Part shown: positions 3,598-43,026 of the stretch, piece by piece
Layout: each line of letters begins with the position of its first letter
Numbering within the stretch: the first letter of the stretch is position 1
Translations under genes and position numbers: made by a program
The notes under the pieces: generated by a model
Seen by the model: the letters and a program-made list of their open reading frames with translations, nothing else
What the model was told of the DNA's origin: nothing
Database searches by the model: none
DNA from: Escherichia phage PJNS034
DNA length: 64,000 bases
Direction: 5' to 3' (one strand)
Sequence record: PP391266.1

Positions 3598-3723
3598 ATT
3601 CTTCCTGAAACTGGTTAAGATTTTCAACATGATGGTTGATATCTTTGTCCTGTATGTTCTGCTGTTTGGTCATATGTCAGCGAACATCGGTGGTAAACTT
3701 TACGAATTTAATGGACTGTTCCT

Positions 3724-4047
3724 ATGATTCTATCTGGCACTGTAAATCTTCAAACTGTTAACACTGAGAAGTTAGTAGAAATTGGTGAAGCTGTCTGCAT
3801 CGCTATGGAGCAACGTAAGCAGCTCCTACGCAAGAAGTTCCGAAAGCATGGTAAGGATGCCCTTACTGACTTTGAACTCCGCCTGATTGACGAGGCGCAC
3901 GATTTGGGCACAGACTTCAACGAAGCACTGACTCTTGAATCAAAACGACACGATGAACAACTTGAATCTGACTTCGCTGCTATGAACGCTGCTGATAACG
4001 TCGGTTCAGAAACATTAAAACTGTTAGACATTCCAGCAGAACGATGA
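3724..4047 (+). CDS. hypothetical protein (107 aa)
   Basis: ORF-track ORF. Confidence 0.3.
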   Translation: MILSGTVNLQTVNTEKLVEIGEAVCIAMEQRKQLLRKKFRKHGKDALTDFELRLIDEAHDLGTDFNEALTLESKRHDEQLESDFAAMNAADNVGSETLKLLDIPAER

Positions 4048-4074
4048 TACTCTAGGGCTTCCCGTTAGGGGAGA

Positions 4075-4130
4075 GTAAGAAATAATATAAGGAATATTAG
4101 TAAGATATAATATTCCTTAATATTACTCCT
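4075..4130. repeat. AT-rich palindromic element (aaggaatatta / taatattcctt) with TAAGAAATAATATAAG core
   Basis: 11-bp inverted arms separated by 8 nt, immediately upstream of 4141. Confidence 0.5.
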
Positions 4131-4140
4131 GAGGTGACTC

Positions 4141-4335
4141 ATGCTTGACTCAAAATGTTCACTATGCGGTTGCACTGGTATTCATGCCTGTATGGGCAAG
4201 CCTTTAAGTGATGGTGTTATCTATTCAACTTACGGTAACACCGAAGTTAGAAAGTTAGCCGCGAAAGAGATTCAAGAAATCCAAGAATTATTGGAAAAGA
4301 TTGTTGACACACAACCCAATAACTTGGTATCTTAA
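4141..4335 (+). CDS. hypothetical small Cys-rich protein (64 aa)
   Basis: ATG at 4141 preceded by GAGG; CSLCGC...HAC cluster; sits just upstream of the tRNA array. Confidence 0.3.
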   Translation: MLDSKCSLCGCTGIHACMGKPLSDGVIYSTYGNTEVRKLAAKEIQEIQELLEKIVDTQPNNLVS

Positions 4336-4422
4336 ATACATGGGGTGAGCAATCACCTCTTCCAGAAGTAGTTGGTGTCCACTGTCCCACAAGGGCTGAA
4401 ACGGAACAGAACTTCTGGGTAT

Positions 4423-4500
4423 CTTGATGTAGCTCAGTTTGGTAGCAGCACTTGCTTTGGGAGCAAGGGGTCGAAGGTTCGAATCCTTCCATCAAGACCA
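4423..4500 (+). tRNA. tRNA-Pro (anticodon TGG), CCA encoded
   Basis: Hand-folded cloverleaf: acceptor cttgatg/catcaag, anticodon stem cttgc/gcaag with loop tttggga, T-arm gaagg-ttcgaat-ccttc; D-stem only 3 bp. Confidence 0.7.
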
Positions 4501-4501
4501 A

Positions 4502-4583
4502 GTGGGATTGGCTGAGTGGTCGAAAGCACCTGACTGTAAATCAGGCATATCACGCGGTGGTTCGAATCCATCATCCCACACCA
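4502..4583 (+). tRNA. tRNA-Tyr (anticodon GTA), CCA encoded
   Basis: Acceptor gtgggat/atcccac, anticodon stem cctga/tcagg with loop ctgtaaa, extended variable region, T-arm ggtgg-ttcgaat-ccatc. Confidence 0.65.
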
Positions 4584-4585
4584 AA

Positions 4586-4662
4586 GCGTCACTAACTCAA
4601 TTGGTTAGAGTAGCGGTCTTTTAAACCGCAGGTTCTGAGTTCGAGTCTCAGGTGGCGTACCA
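4586..4662 (+). tRNA. tRNA-Lys (anticodon TTT), CCA encoded
   Basis: Acceptor gcgtcac/gtggcgt (two G-U pairs), D-arm actc...gagt, anticodon stem gcggt/accgc with loop cttttaa, T-arm ctgag-ttcgagt-ctcag. Confidence 0.8.
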
Positions 4663-4664
4663 AA

Positions 4665-4754
4665 GGAAGTTAGGGCTTTGTGGAAAGCAATCGGTCTTGA
4701 AAACCGACCCACTGTAGCGATATGGTGATGGTTCGACTCCATTAGCTTCCTCCA
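4665..4754 (+). tRNA. tRNA-Ser (anticodon TGA), type II, CCA encoded
   Basis: Acceptor ggaagtt/agcttcc, anticodon stem tcggt/accga with loop cttgaaa, long variable arm, T-loop ttcgact. Confidence 0.75.
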
Positions 4755-4756
4755 AT

Positions 4757-4833
4757 TGTTTCGTAGCTCAGTTGGTAAGAGCGTTCGGCTGATAACCGAA
4801 AGGTCACAAGTTCGAGTCTTGTCGAAACAACCA
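4757..4833 (+). tRNA. tRNA-Ile (anticodon GAT), CCA encoded
   Basis: Canonical cloverleaf: acceptor tgtttcg/cgaaaca, D-arm gctc-agttggtaa-gagc, anticodon stem ttcgg/ccgaa with loop ctgataa, T-arm acaag-ttcgagt-cttgt. Confidence 0.85.
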
Positions 4834-4836
4834 AAT

Positions 4837-4925
4837 GACGGGTTGGCAGAGTTGGTTTATTGCAGCAGCTTGCTAAGTTGCCGAGTCGAAAGGCTCCGTG
4901 GGTTCGAATCCCACACCCGACGCCA
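4837..4925 (+). tRNA. tRNA-Ser (anticodon GCT), type II, CCA encoded
   Basis: Anticodon stem gcagc/gttgc with loop ttgctaa, 16-nt variable arm, T-arm gtggg-ttcgaat-cccac; acceptor has one A-A mismatch as read. Confidence 0.6.
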
Positions 4926-4926
4926 A

Positions 4927-5002
4927 GGACGATAAGCACATGTGGATGTGCGGCAGGCTGTTAACCTGATGGCAGTTGGTTCGAATCCAACATCGTCCGC
5001 CA
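4927..5002 (+). tRNA. tRNA-Asn (anticodon GTT), CCA encoded
   Basis: Acceptor ggacgat/atcgtcc, D-arm gcac...gtgc, anticodon loop ctgttaa, T-arm gttgg-ttcgaat-ccaac. Confidence 0.75.
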
Positions 5003-5004
5003 AT

Positions 5005-5079
5005 AGCGAGATAGTTCAGTGGTAGAATATCGGTTTCATACGCCGACCGTCGATGGTTCGATTCCATCTCTCGCTACCA
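5005..5079 (+). tRNA. tRNA with CAT anticodon (elongator Met or Ile2 type), CCA encoded
   Basis: Acceptor agcgaga/tctcgct fully paired at 1:72 (not initiator-like), anticodon stem tcggt/gccga with loop ttcatac, T-arm gatgg-ttcgatt-ccatc. Confidence 0.75.
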
Positions 5080-5095
5080 AACCTCTTTATCCGAT

Positions 5096-5167
5096 GGGAG
5101 TGTCCTTCTGGGAAGGATGTGGATTCCAACCCCACTAAGTAGAGTTCGATTCTTTACACTCCCGCCA
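5096..5167 (+). tRNA. tRNA-like, possibly tRNA-Gly (anticodon TCC), CCA encoded
   Basis: Acceptor gggagtg/cactccc and T-arm tagag-ttcgatt-cttta fold well; D-loop very short and one mismatch in the anticodon stem. Confidence 0.45.
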
Positions 5168-5174
5168 AATCCCT

Positions 5175-5251
5175 AGCCTTGTAGTGTAGTCTGGTTAGCA
5201 CACGTGACTTTGACTCACGGAGCTTAGGTTCGAATCCTGACAGGGCTGCCA
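5175..5251 (+). tRNA. tRNA-Gln (anticodon TTG), CCA encoded
   Basis: Acceptor agccttg/cagggct, D-arm gtgt...gcac, anticodon stem cgtga/tcacg with loop ctttgac, T-arm ttagg-ttcgaat-cctga. Confidence 0.8.
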
Positions 5252-5267
5252 ATAAGAGGTAATATCA

Positions 5268-5558
5268 ATGTCTGTTCGTTGTTGGAATGCCGCTGGAAAG
5301 CTGGTAGCAGATGTTGGTGACTACAATGTCCGATACTTAGGACGTCAGACGATTACTTACCCTGCGAAAGCTGCTTCAGCAAGAGGCAACTTAGCGGGGT
5401 TAACTGCATCTGGCTCCTTTGGAGTCATTGTGGGAGCCAGTCAAGGTGCCTTTAATGATTATGTAGTAAAGGCAGTTAACGGTGGGTATGAAGTTCTGGC
5501 TAACAGGACAATCTACCAAAATACGACACTTACAGTGGATTTATATAGCTTCGTATGA
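5268..5558 (+). CDS. hypothetical protein (96 aa)
   Basis: ATG at 5268 preceded by AAGAGG; no recognisable motif. Confidence 0.35.
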   Translation: MSVRCWNAAGKLVADVGDYNVRYLGRQTITYPAKAASARGNLAGLTASGSFGVIVGASQGAFNDYVVKAVNGGYEVLANRTIYQNTTLTVDLYSFV

Positions 5559-6220
5559 GTACCATTCAACTTCGTAATTCAGCAGGTGCGATAACGGTAG
5601 ACTCAGATAACAAGGCTGCCCACTACCGTGACCACGTAGCCATGACCACTATTACTGACCGAGGGTATTATGTTTTACCCAATAAGTTAGGTGGTACTGG
5701 TGATATGGGTTATCCTGCAAGGAATCAGCAATTTAAAGCTGATGATAACCTTCAATGGTTCCGATTCAATAACAATGCCAAAGCAATGTTCTGCATCAAC
5801 CAATACCTTGGTGGTGGCTTAGTTACACAGAATGCTGGAGTGATGGCTCGTACACACTTCAACCTTCCGGTAGCTAAAGGCTATATCAACATCTGGAATG
5901 CTCAAGGTCAGTTGATTTGGTCAGATGCTCAGGCAGCGAAGATTCCACGTATTGTGGGCTTCTTCACAATTCCTCCAAACTTTGACTTAGACAACAACGT
6001 GTACTCCCAAAACATTGGTCTGGACAAGTTCATTCTTGCCAGTATGTGTCCGGGTGAAATCAGTGATGATGGTACAGTAGCAGGTTGGTCAGGCTTGTTC
6101 TTTCGAATGGTAAATGGAACGCTGCAAGTGCAGTGGCTCAACAAATACCAGAAAACATGGGCGCAAACTTTTAAGGCAACAGGGATGAAAATCCCATATG
6201 CAATTTTTCCAAACTTATAG
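5555..6220 (+). CDS. hypothetical protein (221 aa)
   Basis: ORF-track ORF whose start overlaps the previous stop. Confidence 0.35.
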   Translation: MSTIQLRNSAGAITVDSDNKAAHYRDHVAMTTITDRGYYVLPNKLGGTGDMGYPARNQQFKADDNLQWFRFNNNAKAMFCINQYLGGGLVTQNAGVMARTHFNLPVAKGYINIWNAQGQLIWSDAQAAKIPRIVGFFTIPPNFDLDNNVYSQNIGLDKFILASMCPGEISDDGTVAGWSGLFFRMVNGTLQVQWLNKYQKTWAQTFKATGMKIPYAIFPNL

Positions 6221-42371: not shown

Positions 42372-42399
42372 TTGACAGCGTACTAGATTCCTGTAAGAT
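42372..42399 (+). promoter_or_regulatory. sigma70-type promoter (TTGACA-16-TAAGAT)
   Basis: Consensus -35; followed by AACGCTCTTTAA leader motif. Confidence 0.5.
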
Positions 42400-42517
42400 A
42401 GACCACGTTTTAACGCTCTTTAACAATATGAATCATTAACGCTTAAACGTTAGTTTAATCAGACGTTATCAAGTGAAGCTGAAAAGTAACACGATAACAA
42501 ATGATGAAAATAAACGG

Positions 42518-42545
42518 TTGACAGCGTGAAATGATTCGGTATAAT
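42518..42545 (+). promoter_or_regulatory. strong sigma70-type promoter (TTGACA-16-TATAAT)
   Basis: Both hexamers perfect consensus. Confidence 0.65.
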
Positions 42546-43026
42546 GAGCGCCATCGAATGACAGAACGTTGTCAGACGATAGCCGGATAAGTGGATAACT
42601 TATAACGGCAGTTCGATAAAGTAGTGTGGTAGCGGGTAGCGGTATGTAACACGGATAATCTACGGATTAACGGCTTATTTGTTGCTTGCTTAAAGCATAA
42701 AACGTCGGGCGGCACGATGGGAGAAGTGCATAAAATCAATTAGGCTCCCTGACTCTTTAACAATTAGGAAACTACGCACCACAATTAACGTTGGATAACG
42801 TAAAGAGTGGGTTAATTTAGGGTGATTCCCTGCGTAGGCTTGTCGAGCTGATAACAGCGGTATGTGATGGACGCTTATATACTCCCTCCATGATAGTGTA
42901 TGACTGATTCCACCTAGGCCAAAGTGAAAGGGCGATAACGAATAGCAAGTAACAATCTCGTTTGATATGGGCATTTAATAGTGAGTGTCCAGATTAAACG
43001 ATAAAACTGAATTGAGGATTAAACCT

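What the first reader, a model, noticed from the sequence alone, without database searches (positions are those of the whole stretch)
4423..5251. Ten tRNA genes packed head to tail with 1-16 nt spacers, all with encoded CCA
Pro, Tyr, Lys, Ser(TGA), Ile, Ser(GCT), Asn, a CAT-anticodon tRNA, a probable Gly and Gln follow each other with spacers mostly of 1-3 nt, and every one carries a genomic 3' CCA. Such spacing implies a single precursor needing very precise 5' and 3' processing. The CAT tRNA has a paired 1:72 position, so it is not an initiator and could be an Ile2-type tRNA needing anticodon modification. One member (Gly) has a non-canonical D-arm.
Basis: seen in the sequence. Interest (0 to 1): 0.45.

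Follow-up and report, generated by a model that had tools for sequence, protein, structure and literature searches.

The report
Phage operon of ten tRNA genes
This is a real, tightly packed block of ten transfer-RNA genes in a bacteriophage genome, an ordinary feature of such viruses, although two of the ten have unusual folds and one of those (a tryptophan tRNA) belongs to an undescribed compact type so far seen only in phages.

Summary
Ten tRNA genes lie head to tail at 4423-5251 (+), each ends in an encoded CCA, and the spacers are 1,2,2,2,3,1,2,16,7 nt. ARAGORN finds 10 and Rfam 9 at gathering score.

- The ninth gene is Trp(CCA), not Gly.
- The CAT gene is most likely elongator Met, not Ile2. 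AUA codons are nearly absent and its closest T5 homolog is tRNA-Met.
- Ser(UGA) is also non-canonical. It is a member of the published phage (8/4) tRNA-Ser class.

The window is a phage about 83% identical to Pantoea phage TacPo2. The array sits in the replication-gene block, behind the window's second-best sigma-70-like promoter, with no terminator before the next ORF.

Most likely mechanism: one host-transcribed precursor is cut by RNase P at every 5' end. The 1-3 nt A/U trailers are then trimmed back to CCA. The tRNAs top up the pool for phage translation; six of ten match phage-enriched codons. Replacement of defence-cleaved host tRNAs (Lys, Tyr) is a live, compatible rival.

The Trp gene has a 6-bp D hairpin with a 3-nt loop and an always-unpaired 31:39 position. 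Covariation across seven phage sequences supports this fold, and the pattern is absent from 100,044 cellular genomes.

Verdict: a new member of a known kind, of modest interest.

The parts
4304..4333 (+). Candidate sigma-70 promoter: -35 TTGACA (4304-4309), 18-nt spacer, extended -10 TGgTATCTT (-10 hexamer 4328-4333). It overlaps the 3' end of ORF 4141-4335. Predicted start near 4340.
   Evidence: Consensus scan, 10/12 plus TG. Second-best site in the whole 64-kb window. Identical in TacPo2. Function not shown.
4340..4422 (+). Predicted 5' leader of the precursor, with a 5' hairpin GGGGUGA-GCAA-UCACCUC and a second irregular hairpin closed by CCAGAAGU/ACUUCUGG.
   Evidence: Fold -27.8 kcal/mol but z only -1.57. 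A 109-nt run identical to TacPo2 (4302-4410) lies inside a larger ~420-bp near-identical block, so its conservation is not specific to the leader. No Rfam match.
4423..4500 (+). tRNA-Pro (UGG), C1-G72, A73, CCA
   Evidence: ARAGORN. Rfam 62.6 bits. Absent from TacPo2, where unrelated sequence fills the slot. 74% to the Ithacavirus and T5 Pro genes.
4502..4583 (+). tRNA-Tyr (GUA), short variable arm, A73, CCA
   Evidence: 63.8 bits. 78% to TacPo2, 81% to Ithacavirus Tyr.
4586..4662 (+). tRNA-Lys (UUU), anticodon arm GCGGU-CUUUUAA-ACCGC
   Evidence: 65 bits. 97% to TacPo2. Shares G29-C41 and U31-A39 with T5 tRNA-Lys, unlike E. coli lysT (GUUGA/UCAAU).
4665..4754 (+). tRNA-Ser (UGA) of the (8/4) type: 8-bp acceptor stem, 4-bp T stem, 5-bp D stem with GUGG tetraloop, 7-bp variable arm, U73, CCA
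   Evidence: Rfam tRNA 32.1 bits and tRNA-Sec 41.5 bits, below its gathering score of 47. MFE fold. The 8/4 model pairs 100% of cells with 14 covarying pairs, while the 7/5 model breaks one pair. 83% to T5 tRNA-Ser1(UGA).
4757..4833 (+). tRNA-Ile (GAU), U1-A72, A73, CCA
   Evidence: 74.6 bits. 95% to TacPo2.
4837..4925 (+). tRNA-Ser (GCU), long variable arm, G73, CCA
   Evidence: 45.1 bits. Only 58% to the TacPo2 gene in the same slot.
4927..5002 (+). tRNA-Asn (GUU), G73, CCA; 27:43 is a non-standard pair
   Evidence: 52.3 bits. 68% to TacPo2.
5005..5079 (+). tRNA with anticodon CAU, best read as elongator Met: A1-U72, A73, loop UUCAUAC
   Evidence: 66.5 bits. 100% identical to TacPo2. Closest to T5 tRNA-Met (68%), not T5 Ile2 (56%).
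5080..5095 (+). 16-nt spacer AACCUCUUUAUCCGAU, the only long spacer
   Evidence: Present but diverged in TacPo2. No function found.
5096..5167 (+). Compact tRNA-Trp (CCA): 7-bp acceptor stem abutting a 6-bp D hairpin UCCUUC-UGG-GAAGGA, four standard anticodon-stem pairs with A31.C39 unpaired (effective 9-nt loop), 4-nt variable loop, G73, CCA
   Evidence: ARAGORN. Rfam 26.6 bits, below gathering. MFE z -2.18. Seven-sequence family 95% paired, with 8 pairs changed on both sides against at most 3 in slid controls. RNAalifold recovers the same D hairpin.
5175..5251 (+). tRNA-Gln (UUG), A1-U72, G73, CCA
   Evidence: 60.8 bits. 92% to TacPo2.
5252..5558 (+). Downstream, probably co-transcribed: RBS AAGAGG, then ATG at 5268 of a 96-aa ORF (PHROG 7961, unknown function). 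No terminator between the array and this ORF.

Best explanation
The region is a polycistronic tRNA operon of a lytic phage related to Pantoea phage TacPo2. It is embedded in the replication and nucleotide-metabolism gene block. Inferred mechanism: host sigma-70 RNA polymerase starts near 4340 from the promoter at 4304-4333, possibly with read-through from upstream. It transcribes all ten tRNAs and continues into the downstream ORFs. Seven of the nine spacers are only 1-3 nt, so host RNase P must make the separating cuts. Each cut creates a mature 5' end and leaves a 1-3 nt A/U trailer on the preceding tRNA. Host 3' exonucleases (RNase T, RNase PH) trim that trailer back to the encoded CCA, so no CCA addition is needed. 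The mature tRNAs are charged by host synthetases and enlarge the tRNA pool for translating the phage's AT-richer genes (45% GC, against 54% in a Pantoea proxy). The match is clearest for CCA, CAA, AAG, UCU, AAC and UAC codons. Shown here: the genes, their folds, CCA ends, spacing, conservation, covariation, promoter consensus and codon statistics. Inferred: transcription, the processing route, charging and the benefit to the phage.
For: Ten tRNAs are found by ARAGORN and nine by Rfam at gathering score. All carry CCA, with spacers of 1-3 nt in seven of nine cases. The base after CCA is A in 10/10 genes here, 11/11 in TacPo2, 9/11 in an unrelated N4-like array and 2/7 in the E. coli metT operon. 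The short spacers contain only A and T. The TTGACA-18-TGnTATCTT site is the second-best sigma-70-like site in 64 kb, and there is no terminator-like site on the + strand in 3600-5700. An orthologous array sits at the same place in TacPo2, with compensatory changes in stems. None of the genes is a recent host capture: the best E. coli match is tRNA-Pro at 82%. Codon use relative to Pantoea vagans pPag3 genes: CCA 3.2x, TCT 4.4x, CAA 3.7x, AAG 2.6x, AAC 1.9x, TAC 1.7x, with Lys, Asn and Tyr residues 1.4-1.7x enriched. E. coli precedent: RNase P alone separates valV-valW, which has a 4-nt spacer, and the general model has RNase T and PH finishing the 3' ends (PMC2190699; PMC7049720 and PMC4176162, listed). 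The GenBank note for T5 says its tRNA-Ser1(UGA), 83% identical to the gene here, becomes an effective amber suppressor when the anticodon is changed, so that fold functions in translation.
Against: There are no expression, processing or charging data. The host of this phage is unknown, and the codon comparison uses 41 plasmid genes of a Pantoea species as a proxy. Four of the ten tRNAs (Ile-GAU, Ser-GCU, Met, Trp) decode codons that are not enriched (ratios 0.5-1.1). The most enriched codons (ACT, GTA, GCT, GGT, CGT) have no phage tRNA. Codons covered by the array make up 37% of phage codons against 32% of proxy codons. The promoter is only a consensus match, and its perfect conservation is part of a ~420-bp near-identical block. 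The Trp gene scores below Rfam's gathering threshold.
Confidence: 0.72

Rival explanations
1. Counter-defence. The array exists mainly to replace host tRNAs that defence or competitor nucleases destroy during infection (PrrC, RloC or PARIS on tRNA-Lys; retron-Eco7 PtuAB on tRNA-Tyr; colicin E5 on Tyr and Asn). It would do so either by sheer supply from a strong promoter or because the phage versions are poor substrates. This is compatible with the main explanation and differs only in what selects for the genes.
For: The array includes Lys(UUU), Tyr(GUA) and Asn(GUU), all known nuclease targets. T5 tRNA-Lys rescues infection from PARIS through substitutions in its anticodon stem-loop (PMC10802454). 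T5 tRNA-Tyr rescues from retron-Eco7, helped by a strong promoter (PMC11555353). The Lys gene here shares G29-C41 and U31-A39 with T5 Lys and differs from E. coli lysT. The array has a strong promoter-like site. Four of the ten tRNAs are not explained by codon demand. The Met, Trp and Gln loops differ from their E. coli counterparts, in line with the anticodon-loop hypothesis (PMC10264068).
Against: The Lys anticodon loop CUUUUAA is identical to E. coli lysT. The Tyr and Asn loops (CUGUAAA, CUGUUAA) look host-like, judged from my memory of the E. coli sequences. No RNA ligase or repair gene lies nearby. The host and its defence systems are unknown, and nothing was tested experimentally.
Confidence: 0.3
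2. The compact Trp(CCA) gene is not just a UGG decoder. With its unpaired 31:39 position (4-bp anticodon stem), A24 and C9, it acts as a near-cognate UGA reader that raises opal readthrough in infected cells.
For: 31:39 is A.C or C.A in 7/7 family members and C.A in T5 tRNA-Trp. 4-bp-stem tRNA-Trp(CCA) reads UGA in several eukaryotes, and an E. coli C27A variant gives about 2.5-fold more readthrough. A9C and G24A are the classical readthrough mutations. Bottom-unpinned variants exist in 267 bacterial genes but were not studied (PMC13092985). The late-gene block uses TGA for about 4 of 30 stops, against 18 of 47 on the + strand.
Against: The validated effect is for the top pair (27:43), not the bottom pair. 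Numbering of positions 9 and 24 is uncertain in this D arm. TGA is an ordinary stop in 22 of 84 ORFs. In-frame extensions after TGA are at most 47 codons, and none joins a downstream gene. Coding density is 91% under the standard code. Host-like phage Trp tRNAs (Erwinia, Rhodococcus, Mycobacterium, Lactococcus phages) have normal 5-bp stems.
Confidence: 0.1
3. One or more members, especially the Trp gene and the fast-diverging Ser(GCU), Asn or Tyr genes, are decaying pseudogenes or processing spacers carried along with the functional genes.
For: The Trp gene scores below Rfam gathering, and ARAGORN misses its TacPo2 and Klebsiella-phage homologs. Ser(GCU) and Asn are only 58% and 68% identical to TacPo2, and whole genes come and go between the two phages (Pro against Glu and Phe).
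Against: All ten keep intact stems, U33, a purine at 37, T loops, discriminators suited to their isotype and CCA. The Trp family keeps 95% pairing, with compensatory changes, across four phage genomes from unrelated lineages and three metagenomic contigs. The divergent genes still score 45-64 bits.
Confidence: 0.07

Closest known systems
tRNA array of Pantoea phage TacPo2 (PP496723, 20555-21472)
   Same: Orthologous locus at the same genomic position, behind the same leader and promoter. Shared order: Tyr, Lys, Ser(UGA), Ile, Ser(GCU), Asn, Met, Trp, Gln. All have CCA followed by A. Met is 100% identical, Lys 97%, Ile 95%, Trp 94% and Gln 92%.
   Different: TacPo2 has Glu and Phe inserted as exact gene-plus-spacer units. 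It lacks Pro, with about 88 nt of unrelated, non-tRNA sequence in that slot. Tyr (78%), Asn (68%) and Ser(GCU) (58%) are far more diverged than the genome average.
tRNA-rich region of coliphage T5 (AY543070, about 28-41 kb)
   Same: Phage-lineage tRNAs with encoded CCA. Ser(UGA) is homologous (83%), and Pro, Tyr and Lys are 74% identical. The Met(CAU) has the same UUCAUAC loop. The Trp is compact, with C31.A39. T5 Lys and Tyr have proven anti-defence roles.
   Different: T5 has 23-24 tRNAs spread over about 13 kb and interrupted by ORFs, HNH endonucleases, several promoters and stable RNAs. It includes fMet and Ile2. Here ten genes are packed into 829 nt behind one promoter-like site.
Phage T4 tRNA gene cluster (own knowledge)
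   Same: Tandem phage tRNA genes with spacers of a few nucleotides, matured from multimeric precursors by host RNase P.
   Different: Several T4 tRNAs lack an encoded CCA and need 3' trimming plus CCA addition before RNase P can act. Here all ten encode CCA. The isotype sets also differ.
E. coli RNase-P-dependent polycistronic tRNA operons (valV-valW, leuQPV; PMC2190699)
   Same: Very short intergenic spacers (4 nt in valV-valW), with separation by RNase P alone and 3' finishing by exonucleases.
   Different: Those are host operons of 2-3 identical or related tRNAs that end at their own terminators. Here ten different tRNAs, with spacers down to 1 nt, run on into protein-coding genes.
(8/4) tRNA-Ser / allo-tRNA group (Mukai et al., NAR 2017, PMC5389517)
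   Same: For the Ser(UGA) gene: an 8-bp acceptor stem plus a 4-bp T stem, a long D stem with a tetraloop, a long variable arm, a U73 or G73 discriminator and a serine anticodon. The class is reported in bacteriophage tRNA clusters.
   Different: That paper found its phage examples in metagenomic, partly alphaproteobacterial phage clusters. The enterobacterial and T5-type lineage is not named in the passages I read.
4-bp-anticodon-stem tRNA-Trp(CCA) (Fakih et al., NAR 2026, PMC13092985)
   Same: For the Trp gene: a CCA anticodon with only four standard anticodon-stem pairs, plus A24 and C9, which in E. coli tRNA-Trp promote UGA reading.
   Different: The studied 'Blastocrithidia-like' class is unpinned at the top (27:43), has a 7-nt loop and a normal D arm. 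This one is unpinned at the bottom (31:39), has a hairpin D arm, comes from phages (which that paper does not cover), and its genome shows no UGA recoding.

Membership tests
tRNA (Rfam RF00005) | Covariance-model score at or above the gathering score (29 bits) | tested here: met
   Nine of ten score 32.1-74.6 bits. The Trp gene scores 26.6 bits and fails on its own; see the tRNA-Trp rows.
tRNA (Rfam RF00005) | Cloverleaf with U33, purine 37, a T loop of the UUCRANY type, a discriminator and a 3' CCA | tested here: met
   Visible in the Rfam alignments for all ten and in the end sequences.
Phage polycistronic tRNA operon (T4/T5 kind) | Several tRNA genes in tandem on one strand of a phage genome with short spacers | tested here: met
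   The phage context comes from TacPo2 and GAP52 similarity and from the DNA polymerase, exonuclease and structural blocks.
Phage polycistronic tRNA operon (T4/T5 kind) | Transcription as one precursor and maturation by RNase P and 3' exonucleases | not testable with these tools
   Only a promoter consensus match and the absence of a terminator are available. RNA data from infected cells are needed.
(8/4) tRNA-Ser (allo-tRNA group, PMC5389517) - Ser(UGA) gene | 8-bp acceptor stem with a 4-bp T stem (12-bp acceptor branch) | tested here: met
   The 8/4 model pairs 100% of cells. Its two specific pairs each covary (AU x4/UA x1; CG x4/UA x1), while the 7/5-specific pair is GU x4 and broken x1. 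The discrimination rests on one sequence (Ithacavirus), so support is modest.
(8/4) tRNA-Ser (allo-tRNA group, PMC5389517) - Ser(UGA) gene | Long D stem with a tetraloop, a long variable arm, G73 or U73, and a serine anticodon | tested here: met
   5-bp D stem (4 of 5 pairs covary) with a GUGG/GCGG loop, a 7-bp V arm, U73 and anticodon UGA.
tRNA-Trp - gene 5096-5167 | Anticodon CCA framed by U33 and A37 | tested here: met
   U-CCA-A is invariant in all 7 family members plus the Acinetobacter, T5, Providencia and Vibrio relatives.
tRNA-Trp - gene 5096-5167 | Discriminator G73 (bacterial TrpRS identity element; own knowledge) | tested here: met
   G73 is present in every full-length member and in E. 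coli trpT.
tRNA-Trp - gene 5096-5167 | Canonical D arm (3-4 bp stem, 7-11 nt loop, unpaired nt 8 and 9) | tested here: not met
   6-bp hairpin with a 3-nt YGG loop, using nt 8 and 9. The outer pair 9:21 covaries (CG x3, UA x3).
tRNA-Trp - gene 5096-5167 | Aminoacylation with tryptophan | not testable with these tools
   An in vitro TrpRS assay or charged-tRNA sequencing is needed.
   The UCC register puts C at position 33 in the Klebsiella, pSal and metagenomic homologs, places a U.C mismatch in mid-stem, and the discriminator is G73.
tRNA-Ile2 (CAU, lysidine) - gene 5005-5079 | Closer to known Ile2 than to Met tRNAs; acceptor pairs C4-G69 and C5-G68 used by E. coli TilS (own knowledge) | tested here: not met
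   56% to T5 Ile2 and 61% to E. coli ileX, against 68% to T5 Met and 65% to E. coli metT. It has G4-C69 and A5-U68, and its loop UUCAUAC is shared with T5 Met, while T5 Ile2 and E. coli ileX have CUCAUAA, as does E. coli metT.
tRNA-Ile2 (CAU, lysidine) - gene 5005-5079 | Demand for AUA decoding in the phage | tested here: not met
   AUA is 2.1 per 1000 codons overall, 0.6 in late genes and 4% of Ile codons.
tRNA-Ile2 (CAU, lysidine) - gene 5005-5079 | C34 converted to lysidine by TilS | not testable with these tools
   Mass spectrometry or modification-sensitive sequencing is needed.
Initiator tRNA-fMet - gene 5005-5079 | Unpaired 1:72 and three G-C pairs (29-31:39-41) in the anticodon stem | tested here: not met
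   A1-U72 is paired, and the stem is U-A, C-G, G-C, G-C, U-G.
Blastocrithidia-like 4-bp-stem tRNA-Trp(CCA) (PMC13092985) | Anticodon stem unpinned at the top (27:43), a 7-nt loop, and no A9C or G24A | tested here: not met
   27:43 is G-C. The unpaired position is 31:39, and A24 and C9 are present. This gene falls in that paper's unstudied 'bottom-unpinned' class.

The most novel reading that the evidence does not exclude
The compact Trp(CCA) gene at 5096-5167 represents a phage-specific structural class of tRNA-Trp. Its features are a 6-bp D hairpin with a 3-nt loop, no free nucleotides 8 and 9, and a conserved A.C or C.A at 31:39 that gives a 4-bp anticodon stem. The class would be selected for a special property rather than for simple supply: either enhanced reading of UGA (a natural, virus-delivered opal readthrough tRNA) or resistance to a tRNA-Trp-directed nuclease. 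The class occurs in at least four unrelated phage lineages and is often missed by annotation. It has no match among 100,044 species-representative cellular genomes.
Probability: 0.12. Interest if true: 0.65.

Novelty: new member of a known kind. Interest (0 to 1): 0.33.

Why it matters
As a whole, the array is one more example of a long-known phage feature, and it mainly matters for correct annotation: Trp rather than Gly, and Met rather than Ile2.

It is a clean natural case for studying how ten different tRNAs are released from a precursor with 1-3 nt spacers. It also bears on the current debate over whether phage tRNAs serve codon supply or escape from tRNA-cleaving defences, because it carries Lys and Tyr, the two isotypes with experimental anti-defence roles in T5.

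The two odd folds show that standard tools under-call phage tRNAs. Homologs are unannotated in several GenBank phage genomes.

If the compact tRNA-Trp proved to alter UGA decoding or to resist a nuclease, it would extend the recent 4-bp-anticodon-stem work to viruses and to the unstudied bottom-unpinned class.

Tried and rejected
1. Gly(UCC) reading of the ninth gene: rejected on U33/A37 invariance, G73 and stem geometry.

2. Ile2 and initiator readings of the CAT gene: disfavoured or rejected.

3. phiEco32-type middle/late promoter motif TAATGTATA (recalled from memory): 9 matches with up to one mismatch, against 12 expected by chance, and none near the array.

4. The leader as an independently conserved structured RNA: fold z is only -1.57, there is no Rfam hit, and its perfect conservation is part of a ~420-bp identical block.

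5. The TacPo2 'Pro slot' as a degenerate tRNA: no ARAGORN or Rfam signal.

6. Exact and degenerate pattern scans of IMG/VR for the leader and for the Trp fold: four scans, no hits. A metagenome scan for the Met anticodon arm also found nothing.

7. Programmed UGA readthrough or recoding: no long in-frame extensions. My 'NTGA overlap' count in that call is uninformative, because 3 of the 4 possible preceding bases satisfy it.

8. Recent capture from an enterobacterial host: the best identity is 82%, for Pro only.

9. 'All phage Trp tRNAs have 4-bp anticodon stems': rejected, because four host-like phage Trp genes have normal 5-bp stems.

10. tRNA repair or processing genes next to the array: none found.

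11. Ithacavirus as donor of the divergent genes: only Tyr is marginally closer (81% against 78%), and Ser(GCU) and Asn have no close relative.
Full report
**Observation**

ARAGORN run on the whole 64-kb window finds exactly ten tRNA genes. All are on the + strand between 4423 and 5251, and there are none elsewhere. In order they are Pro(UGG), Tyr(GUA), Lys(UUU), Ser(UGA), Ile(GAU), Ser(GCU), Asn(GUU), a CAU tRNA, Trp(CCA) and Gln(UUG).

Rfam's tRNA model confirms nine at its gathering score, with 32-75 bits. The ninth reaches 26.6 bits against a threshold of 29 in a local scan. Reading the sequence shows that all ten end in a genomic CCA and that the spacers are 1, 2, 2, 2, 3, 1, 2, 16 and 7 nt.

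**Context**

The window is a phage. About 84% of its first 20 kb aligns at 83% identity to Pantoea phage TacPo2 (65 kb), with weaker links to Cronobacter phage GAP52.

Mechanical gene calling gives 91% coding density. There are + strand blocks at 1-12 kb and 44-64 kb, and a - strand block of large genes at 12.3-44 kb. The array lies in the first + block. Its neighbours are a family A DNA polymerase, a PD-(D/E)XK nuclease, a 5'-3' exonuclease, a nucleoside deoxyribosyltransferase and a PnuC-like transporter. No RNA repair or tRNA processing genes are adjacent.

**Transcription signals**

A TTGACA-18 nt-TGgTATCTT site at 4304-4333 is the second-best sigma-70-like match in the whole window. It would start transcription about 80 nt before tRNA-Pro.

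No terminator-like site follows the array. A ribosome-binding site and the ATG of a 96-aa ORF begin 16 nt after the last CCA.

The leader is identical to TacPo2 over 109 nt. However, this is part of a ~420-bp near-identical block (about 4000-4420) that ends exactly at the 5' edge of tRNA-Pro. The leader's fold is not exceptional (z -1.57). I therefore do not claim a function for the leader beyond carrying the promoter.

**Comparison with TacPo2**

The orthologous array in TacPo2 has Tyr, Glu, Lys, Phe, Ser, Ile, Ser, Asn, Met, Trp and Gln. Glu and Phe are present there as exact gene-plus-spacer units. Pro is replaced by about 88 nt of unrelated, non-tRNA sequence.

Per-gene identity ranges widely: Met 100%, Lys 97%, Ile 95%, Trp 94%, Gln 92%, Ser(UGA) 86%, Tyr 78%, Asn 68% and Ser(GCU) 58%. 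The array is thus a mosaic that turns over gene by gene, with breakpoints at tRNA boundaries.

Ser(UGA) is 83-85% identical to T5-like phage genes, and Pro-Tyr is about 76% identical to an N4-like Ithacavirus array. The best E. coli match is 82%, for Pro only. These are phage-lineage tRNAs, not recent host captures.

**The ninth gene is Trp, not Gly**

ARAGORN calls CCA, and tRNAscan-SE annotated the TacPo2 ortholog as Trp. I collected homologs from:
- Klebsiella phage phi1_175008, where the gene is unannotated;
- Salmonella phage pSal-SNUABM-01;
- an Acinetobacter 98-kb phage, where it is also unannotated;
- three metagenomic contigs that carry large tRNA arrays.

In all of them U33-CCA-A37 and G73 are invariant. 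The UCC register would put C at position 33 in most homologs and a mismatch in mid-stem.

The fold is unusual. A 7-bp acceptor stem abuts a 6-bp D hairpin (UCCUUC-UGG-GAAGGA) that uses nucleotides 8 and 9 and closes on a 3-nt YGG loop. The anticodon stem has four standard pairs, and 31:39 is always A.C or C.A.

On seven ungapped sequences, 95% of cells pair and eight pairs change on both sides, against at most three in the slid controls. RNAalifold independently recovers the D hairpin and a 9-nt anticodon loop. The defining pattern has no match in 100,044 species-representative bacterial and archaeal genomes or in IMG/VR. T5's own 71-nt tRNA-Trp also has a small D arm and C31.A39.

**Ser(UGA) is also non-canonical**

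It scores higher on Rfam's tRNA-Sec model (41.5 bits, below the gathering score of 47) than on the tRNA model. It folds with an 8-bp acceptor stem, a 4-bp T stem, a 5-bp D stem with a GUGG tetraloop, and a 7-bp variable arm.

On five phage sequences the 8/4 model pairs every cell and both of its specific pairs covary. The conventional 7/5 model breaks one pair. This distinction rests mainly on one sequence.

This is the (8/4) tRNA-Ser class that Mukai et al. described, including in phage tRNA clusters (PMC5389517). T5's GenBank record notes that its homolog becomes an effective amber suppressor when the anticodon is changed, so the fold works in translation.

**The CAU gene**

A1-U72 is paired, and the anticodon stem lacks the initiator's three G-C pairs, so it is not an initiator. 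T5 encodes three CAU tRNAs, annotated fMet, Met and Ile2. The gene here is 68% identical to T5 Met, sharing its unusual UUCAUAC loop, A1-U72 and A73, against 56% to T5 Ile2.

AUA makes up 2.1 per 1000 codons in the phage and 0.6 in late genes. Elongator Met is therefore the better reading. Only modification analysis can settle it.

**Function**

The phage is 45% GC, and the Pantoea vagans megaplasmid used as a host proxy is 54% GC. Relative to that proxy, codons read by six of the ten tRNAs are enriched: CCA 3.2x, UCU 4.4x, CAA 3.7x, AAG 2.6x, AAC 1.9x and UAC 1.7x. Lys, Asn and Tyr residues are also more frequent.

Ile, Ser(AGY), Met and Trp codons are not enriched, and the most enriched codons (ACU, GUA, GCU, GGU, CGU) have no phage tRNA. 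Codon supply is thus partly supported. The proxy is imperfect: the host is unknown and the proxy genes are plasmid genes.

The competing and compatible idea is replacement of host tRNAs destroyed by defence nucleases. T5 tRNA-Lys defeats PARIS through anticodon stem-loop substitutions (PMC10802454). T5 tRNA-Tyr defeats retron-Eco7 with the help of a strong promoter (PMC11555353). The Lys gene here shares the inner anticodon-stem pairs with T5 Lys and differs from E. coli lysT, although the loop itself is identical to the host's.

**Processing**

In E. coli, either RNase E cuts 1-3 nt after CCA in A/U-rich spacers, or RNase P alone separates closely spaced tRNAs such as valV-valW with its 4-nt spacer. 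RNase T and RNase PH then finish the 3' ends (PMC2190699; related papers).

With spacers of 1-3 nt, RNase P is the only enzyme that can produce correct 5' ends here. Its cuts leave trailers of A or U only. The base after CCA is A in 10/10 genes here, 11/11 in TacPo2, 9/11 in an Ithacavirus array and 2/7 in the E. coli metT operon. This suits exonucleolytic trimming that stops at CCA; that RNase T is inhibited by 3' C residues is from my own knowledge. Encoded CCA in every gene removes the dependence on CCA addition that some T4 tRNAs have (also own knowledge). All of this is inference from sequence.

**Speculative reading of the Trp gene**

[quoted passage not shown] An E. coli C27A variant gives about 2.5-fold more readthrough. 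A9C and G24A are the classical readthrough mutations. Among 3438 bacterial 4-bp-stem Trp genes, 267 are unpinned at the bottom, a class left unstudied. Phages are not mentioned (PMC13092985).

The gene here is bottom-unpinned and has A24 and C9, although the numbering is uncertain in this D arm.

Against a recoding role:
- TGA ends 22 of 84 ORFs.
- No post-TGA extension exceeds 47 codons or joins a downstream gene.
- Four host-like phage Trp genes have normal stems.

I give this reading about 10-12%.

**Verdict**

This is a genuine and well-formed phage tRNA operon, and it is a new member of a known kind. Its interpretation is partly right: processing logic and non-initiator status hold, while Gly is wrong and Ile2 is disfavoured. 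The most interesting residue is the compact, phage-restricted tRNA-Trp fold.

Noticed in passing
window 4665-4754: Ser(UGA) is an (8/4) tRNA with a tRNA-Sec-like D arm (5-bp stem, GUGG tetraloop). It scores higher on Rfam tRNA-Sec than on tRNA. Homologs occur in T5-like phages, Klebsiella phage phi1_175008 and an Ithacavirus.
   Followed up: yes
window 4000-4420: A ~420-bp block is 95-100% identical to TacPo2 (perfect runs at 4039-4154 and 4302-4410), against a local background of about 73%. It covers the end of ORF 3724-4047, an intergenic region, the 64-aa ORF 4141-4335 and the tRNA leader, and it stops exactly at the start of tRNA-Pro. This suggests a recombination breakpoint or recent exchange.
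   Followed up: partly
window 4048-4140: The intergenic region holds a GC hairpin (CUUCCC-GUUA-GGGGAG) and a long AT-rich inverted repeat (about 4083-4128) with TATAAT in its loop. The 4040-4145 stretch folds at -31.2 kcal/mol (z -3.7, with 0 of 200 shuffles as stable). It may be an operator or promoter for the small ORF 4141-4335.
   Followed up: partly
L005 147-218 and L013 (about 61-151), Klebsiella phage phi1_175008 PQ360875; L002 3369-3454, Salmonella phage UTK0002; L007 1192-1261, Acinetobacter phage YMC13/03/R2096; L004 about 126-199, Vibrio phage JSF10: Several GenBank phage records lack annotation for tRNA genes of these two unusual folds (compact Trp and 8/4 Ser). ARAGORN also misses the Trp in TacPo2, the Klebsiella phage and the Acinetobacter phage. 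Just upstream of the Acinetobacter Trp-like gene, another unannotated sequence ends in CCA (L007 about 1189).
   Followed up: partly
window 4500-5252; L001; L002: The nucleotide after every encoded CCA is A (10/10 here, 11/11 in TacPo2, 9/11 in the Ithacavirus array, 2/7 in the E. coli metT operon). The base before every tRNA 5' end here is A or T.
   Followed up: partly
window 4423-5251: Five of the ten genes (Pro, Tyr, Ser-GCU, Asn, Gln) share the exact T-arm 11-mer GGTTCGAATCC. These include all four genes that are missing from or strongly diverged in TacPo2, where only Tyr has the 11-mer. The repeats could be substrates for the gene-by-gene turnover.
   Followed up: partly
window 12300-44200 (- strand) versus the + strand blocks: Stop-codon use differs by block. 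The large - strand (presumably late) genes end almost always in TAA (about 4 TGA among about 30), whereas 18 of 47 + strand ORFs end in TGA.
   Followed up: partly
window 42372-42550 (+): The best sigma-70-like promoter match in the window (TTGACA-16-TATAAT at 42518) and another good one (42372) lie in the sparsely coding 41.2-44.2 kb region between the two gene blocks. This may be the early promoter region.
   Followed up: no
L016 (metagenome contig Ga0190275_10010979, 6.7 kb): A phage-like contig carries at least 20 tRNA genes in under 4 kb, including three Pro(UGG) and three CAU tRNAs, and ends with a compact Trp of the Klebsiella-phage type.
   Followed up: no
L003 125-198 (Providencia phage PSTRCR_127): This T4-like phage's otherwise canonical tRNA-Trp has A27.C43, that is, a top-unpinned 4-bp anticodon stem, plus A24. 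That is the configuration linked to UGA reading in PMC13092985.
   Followed up: no
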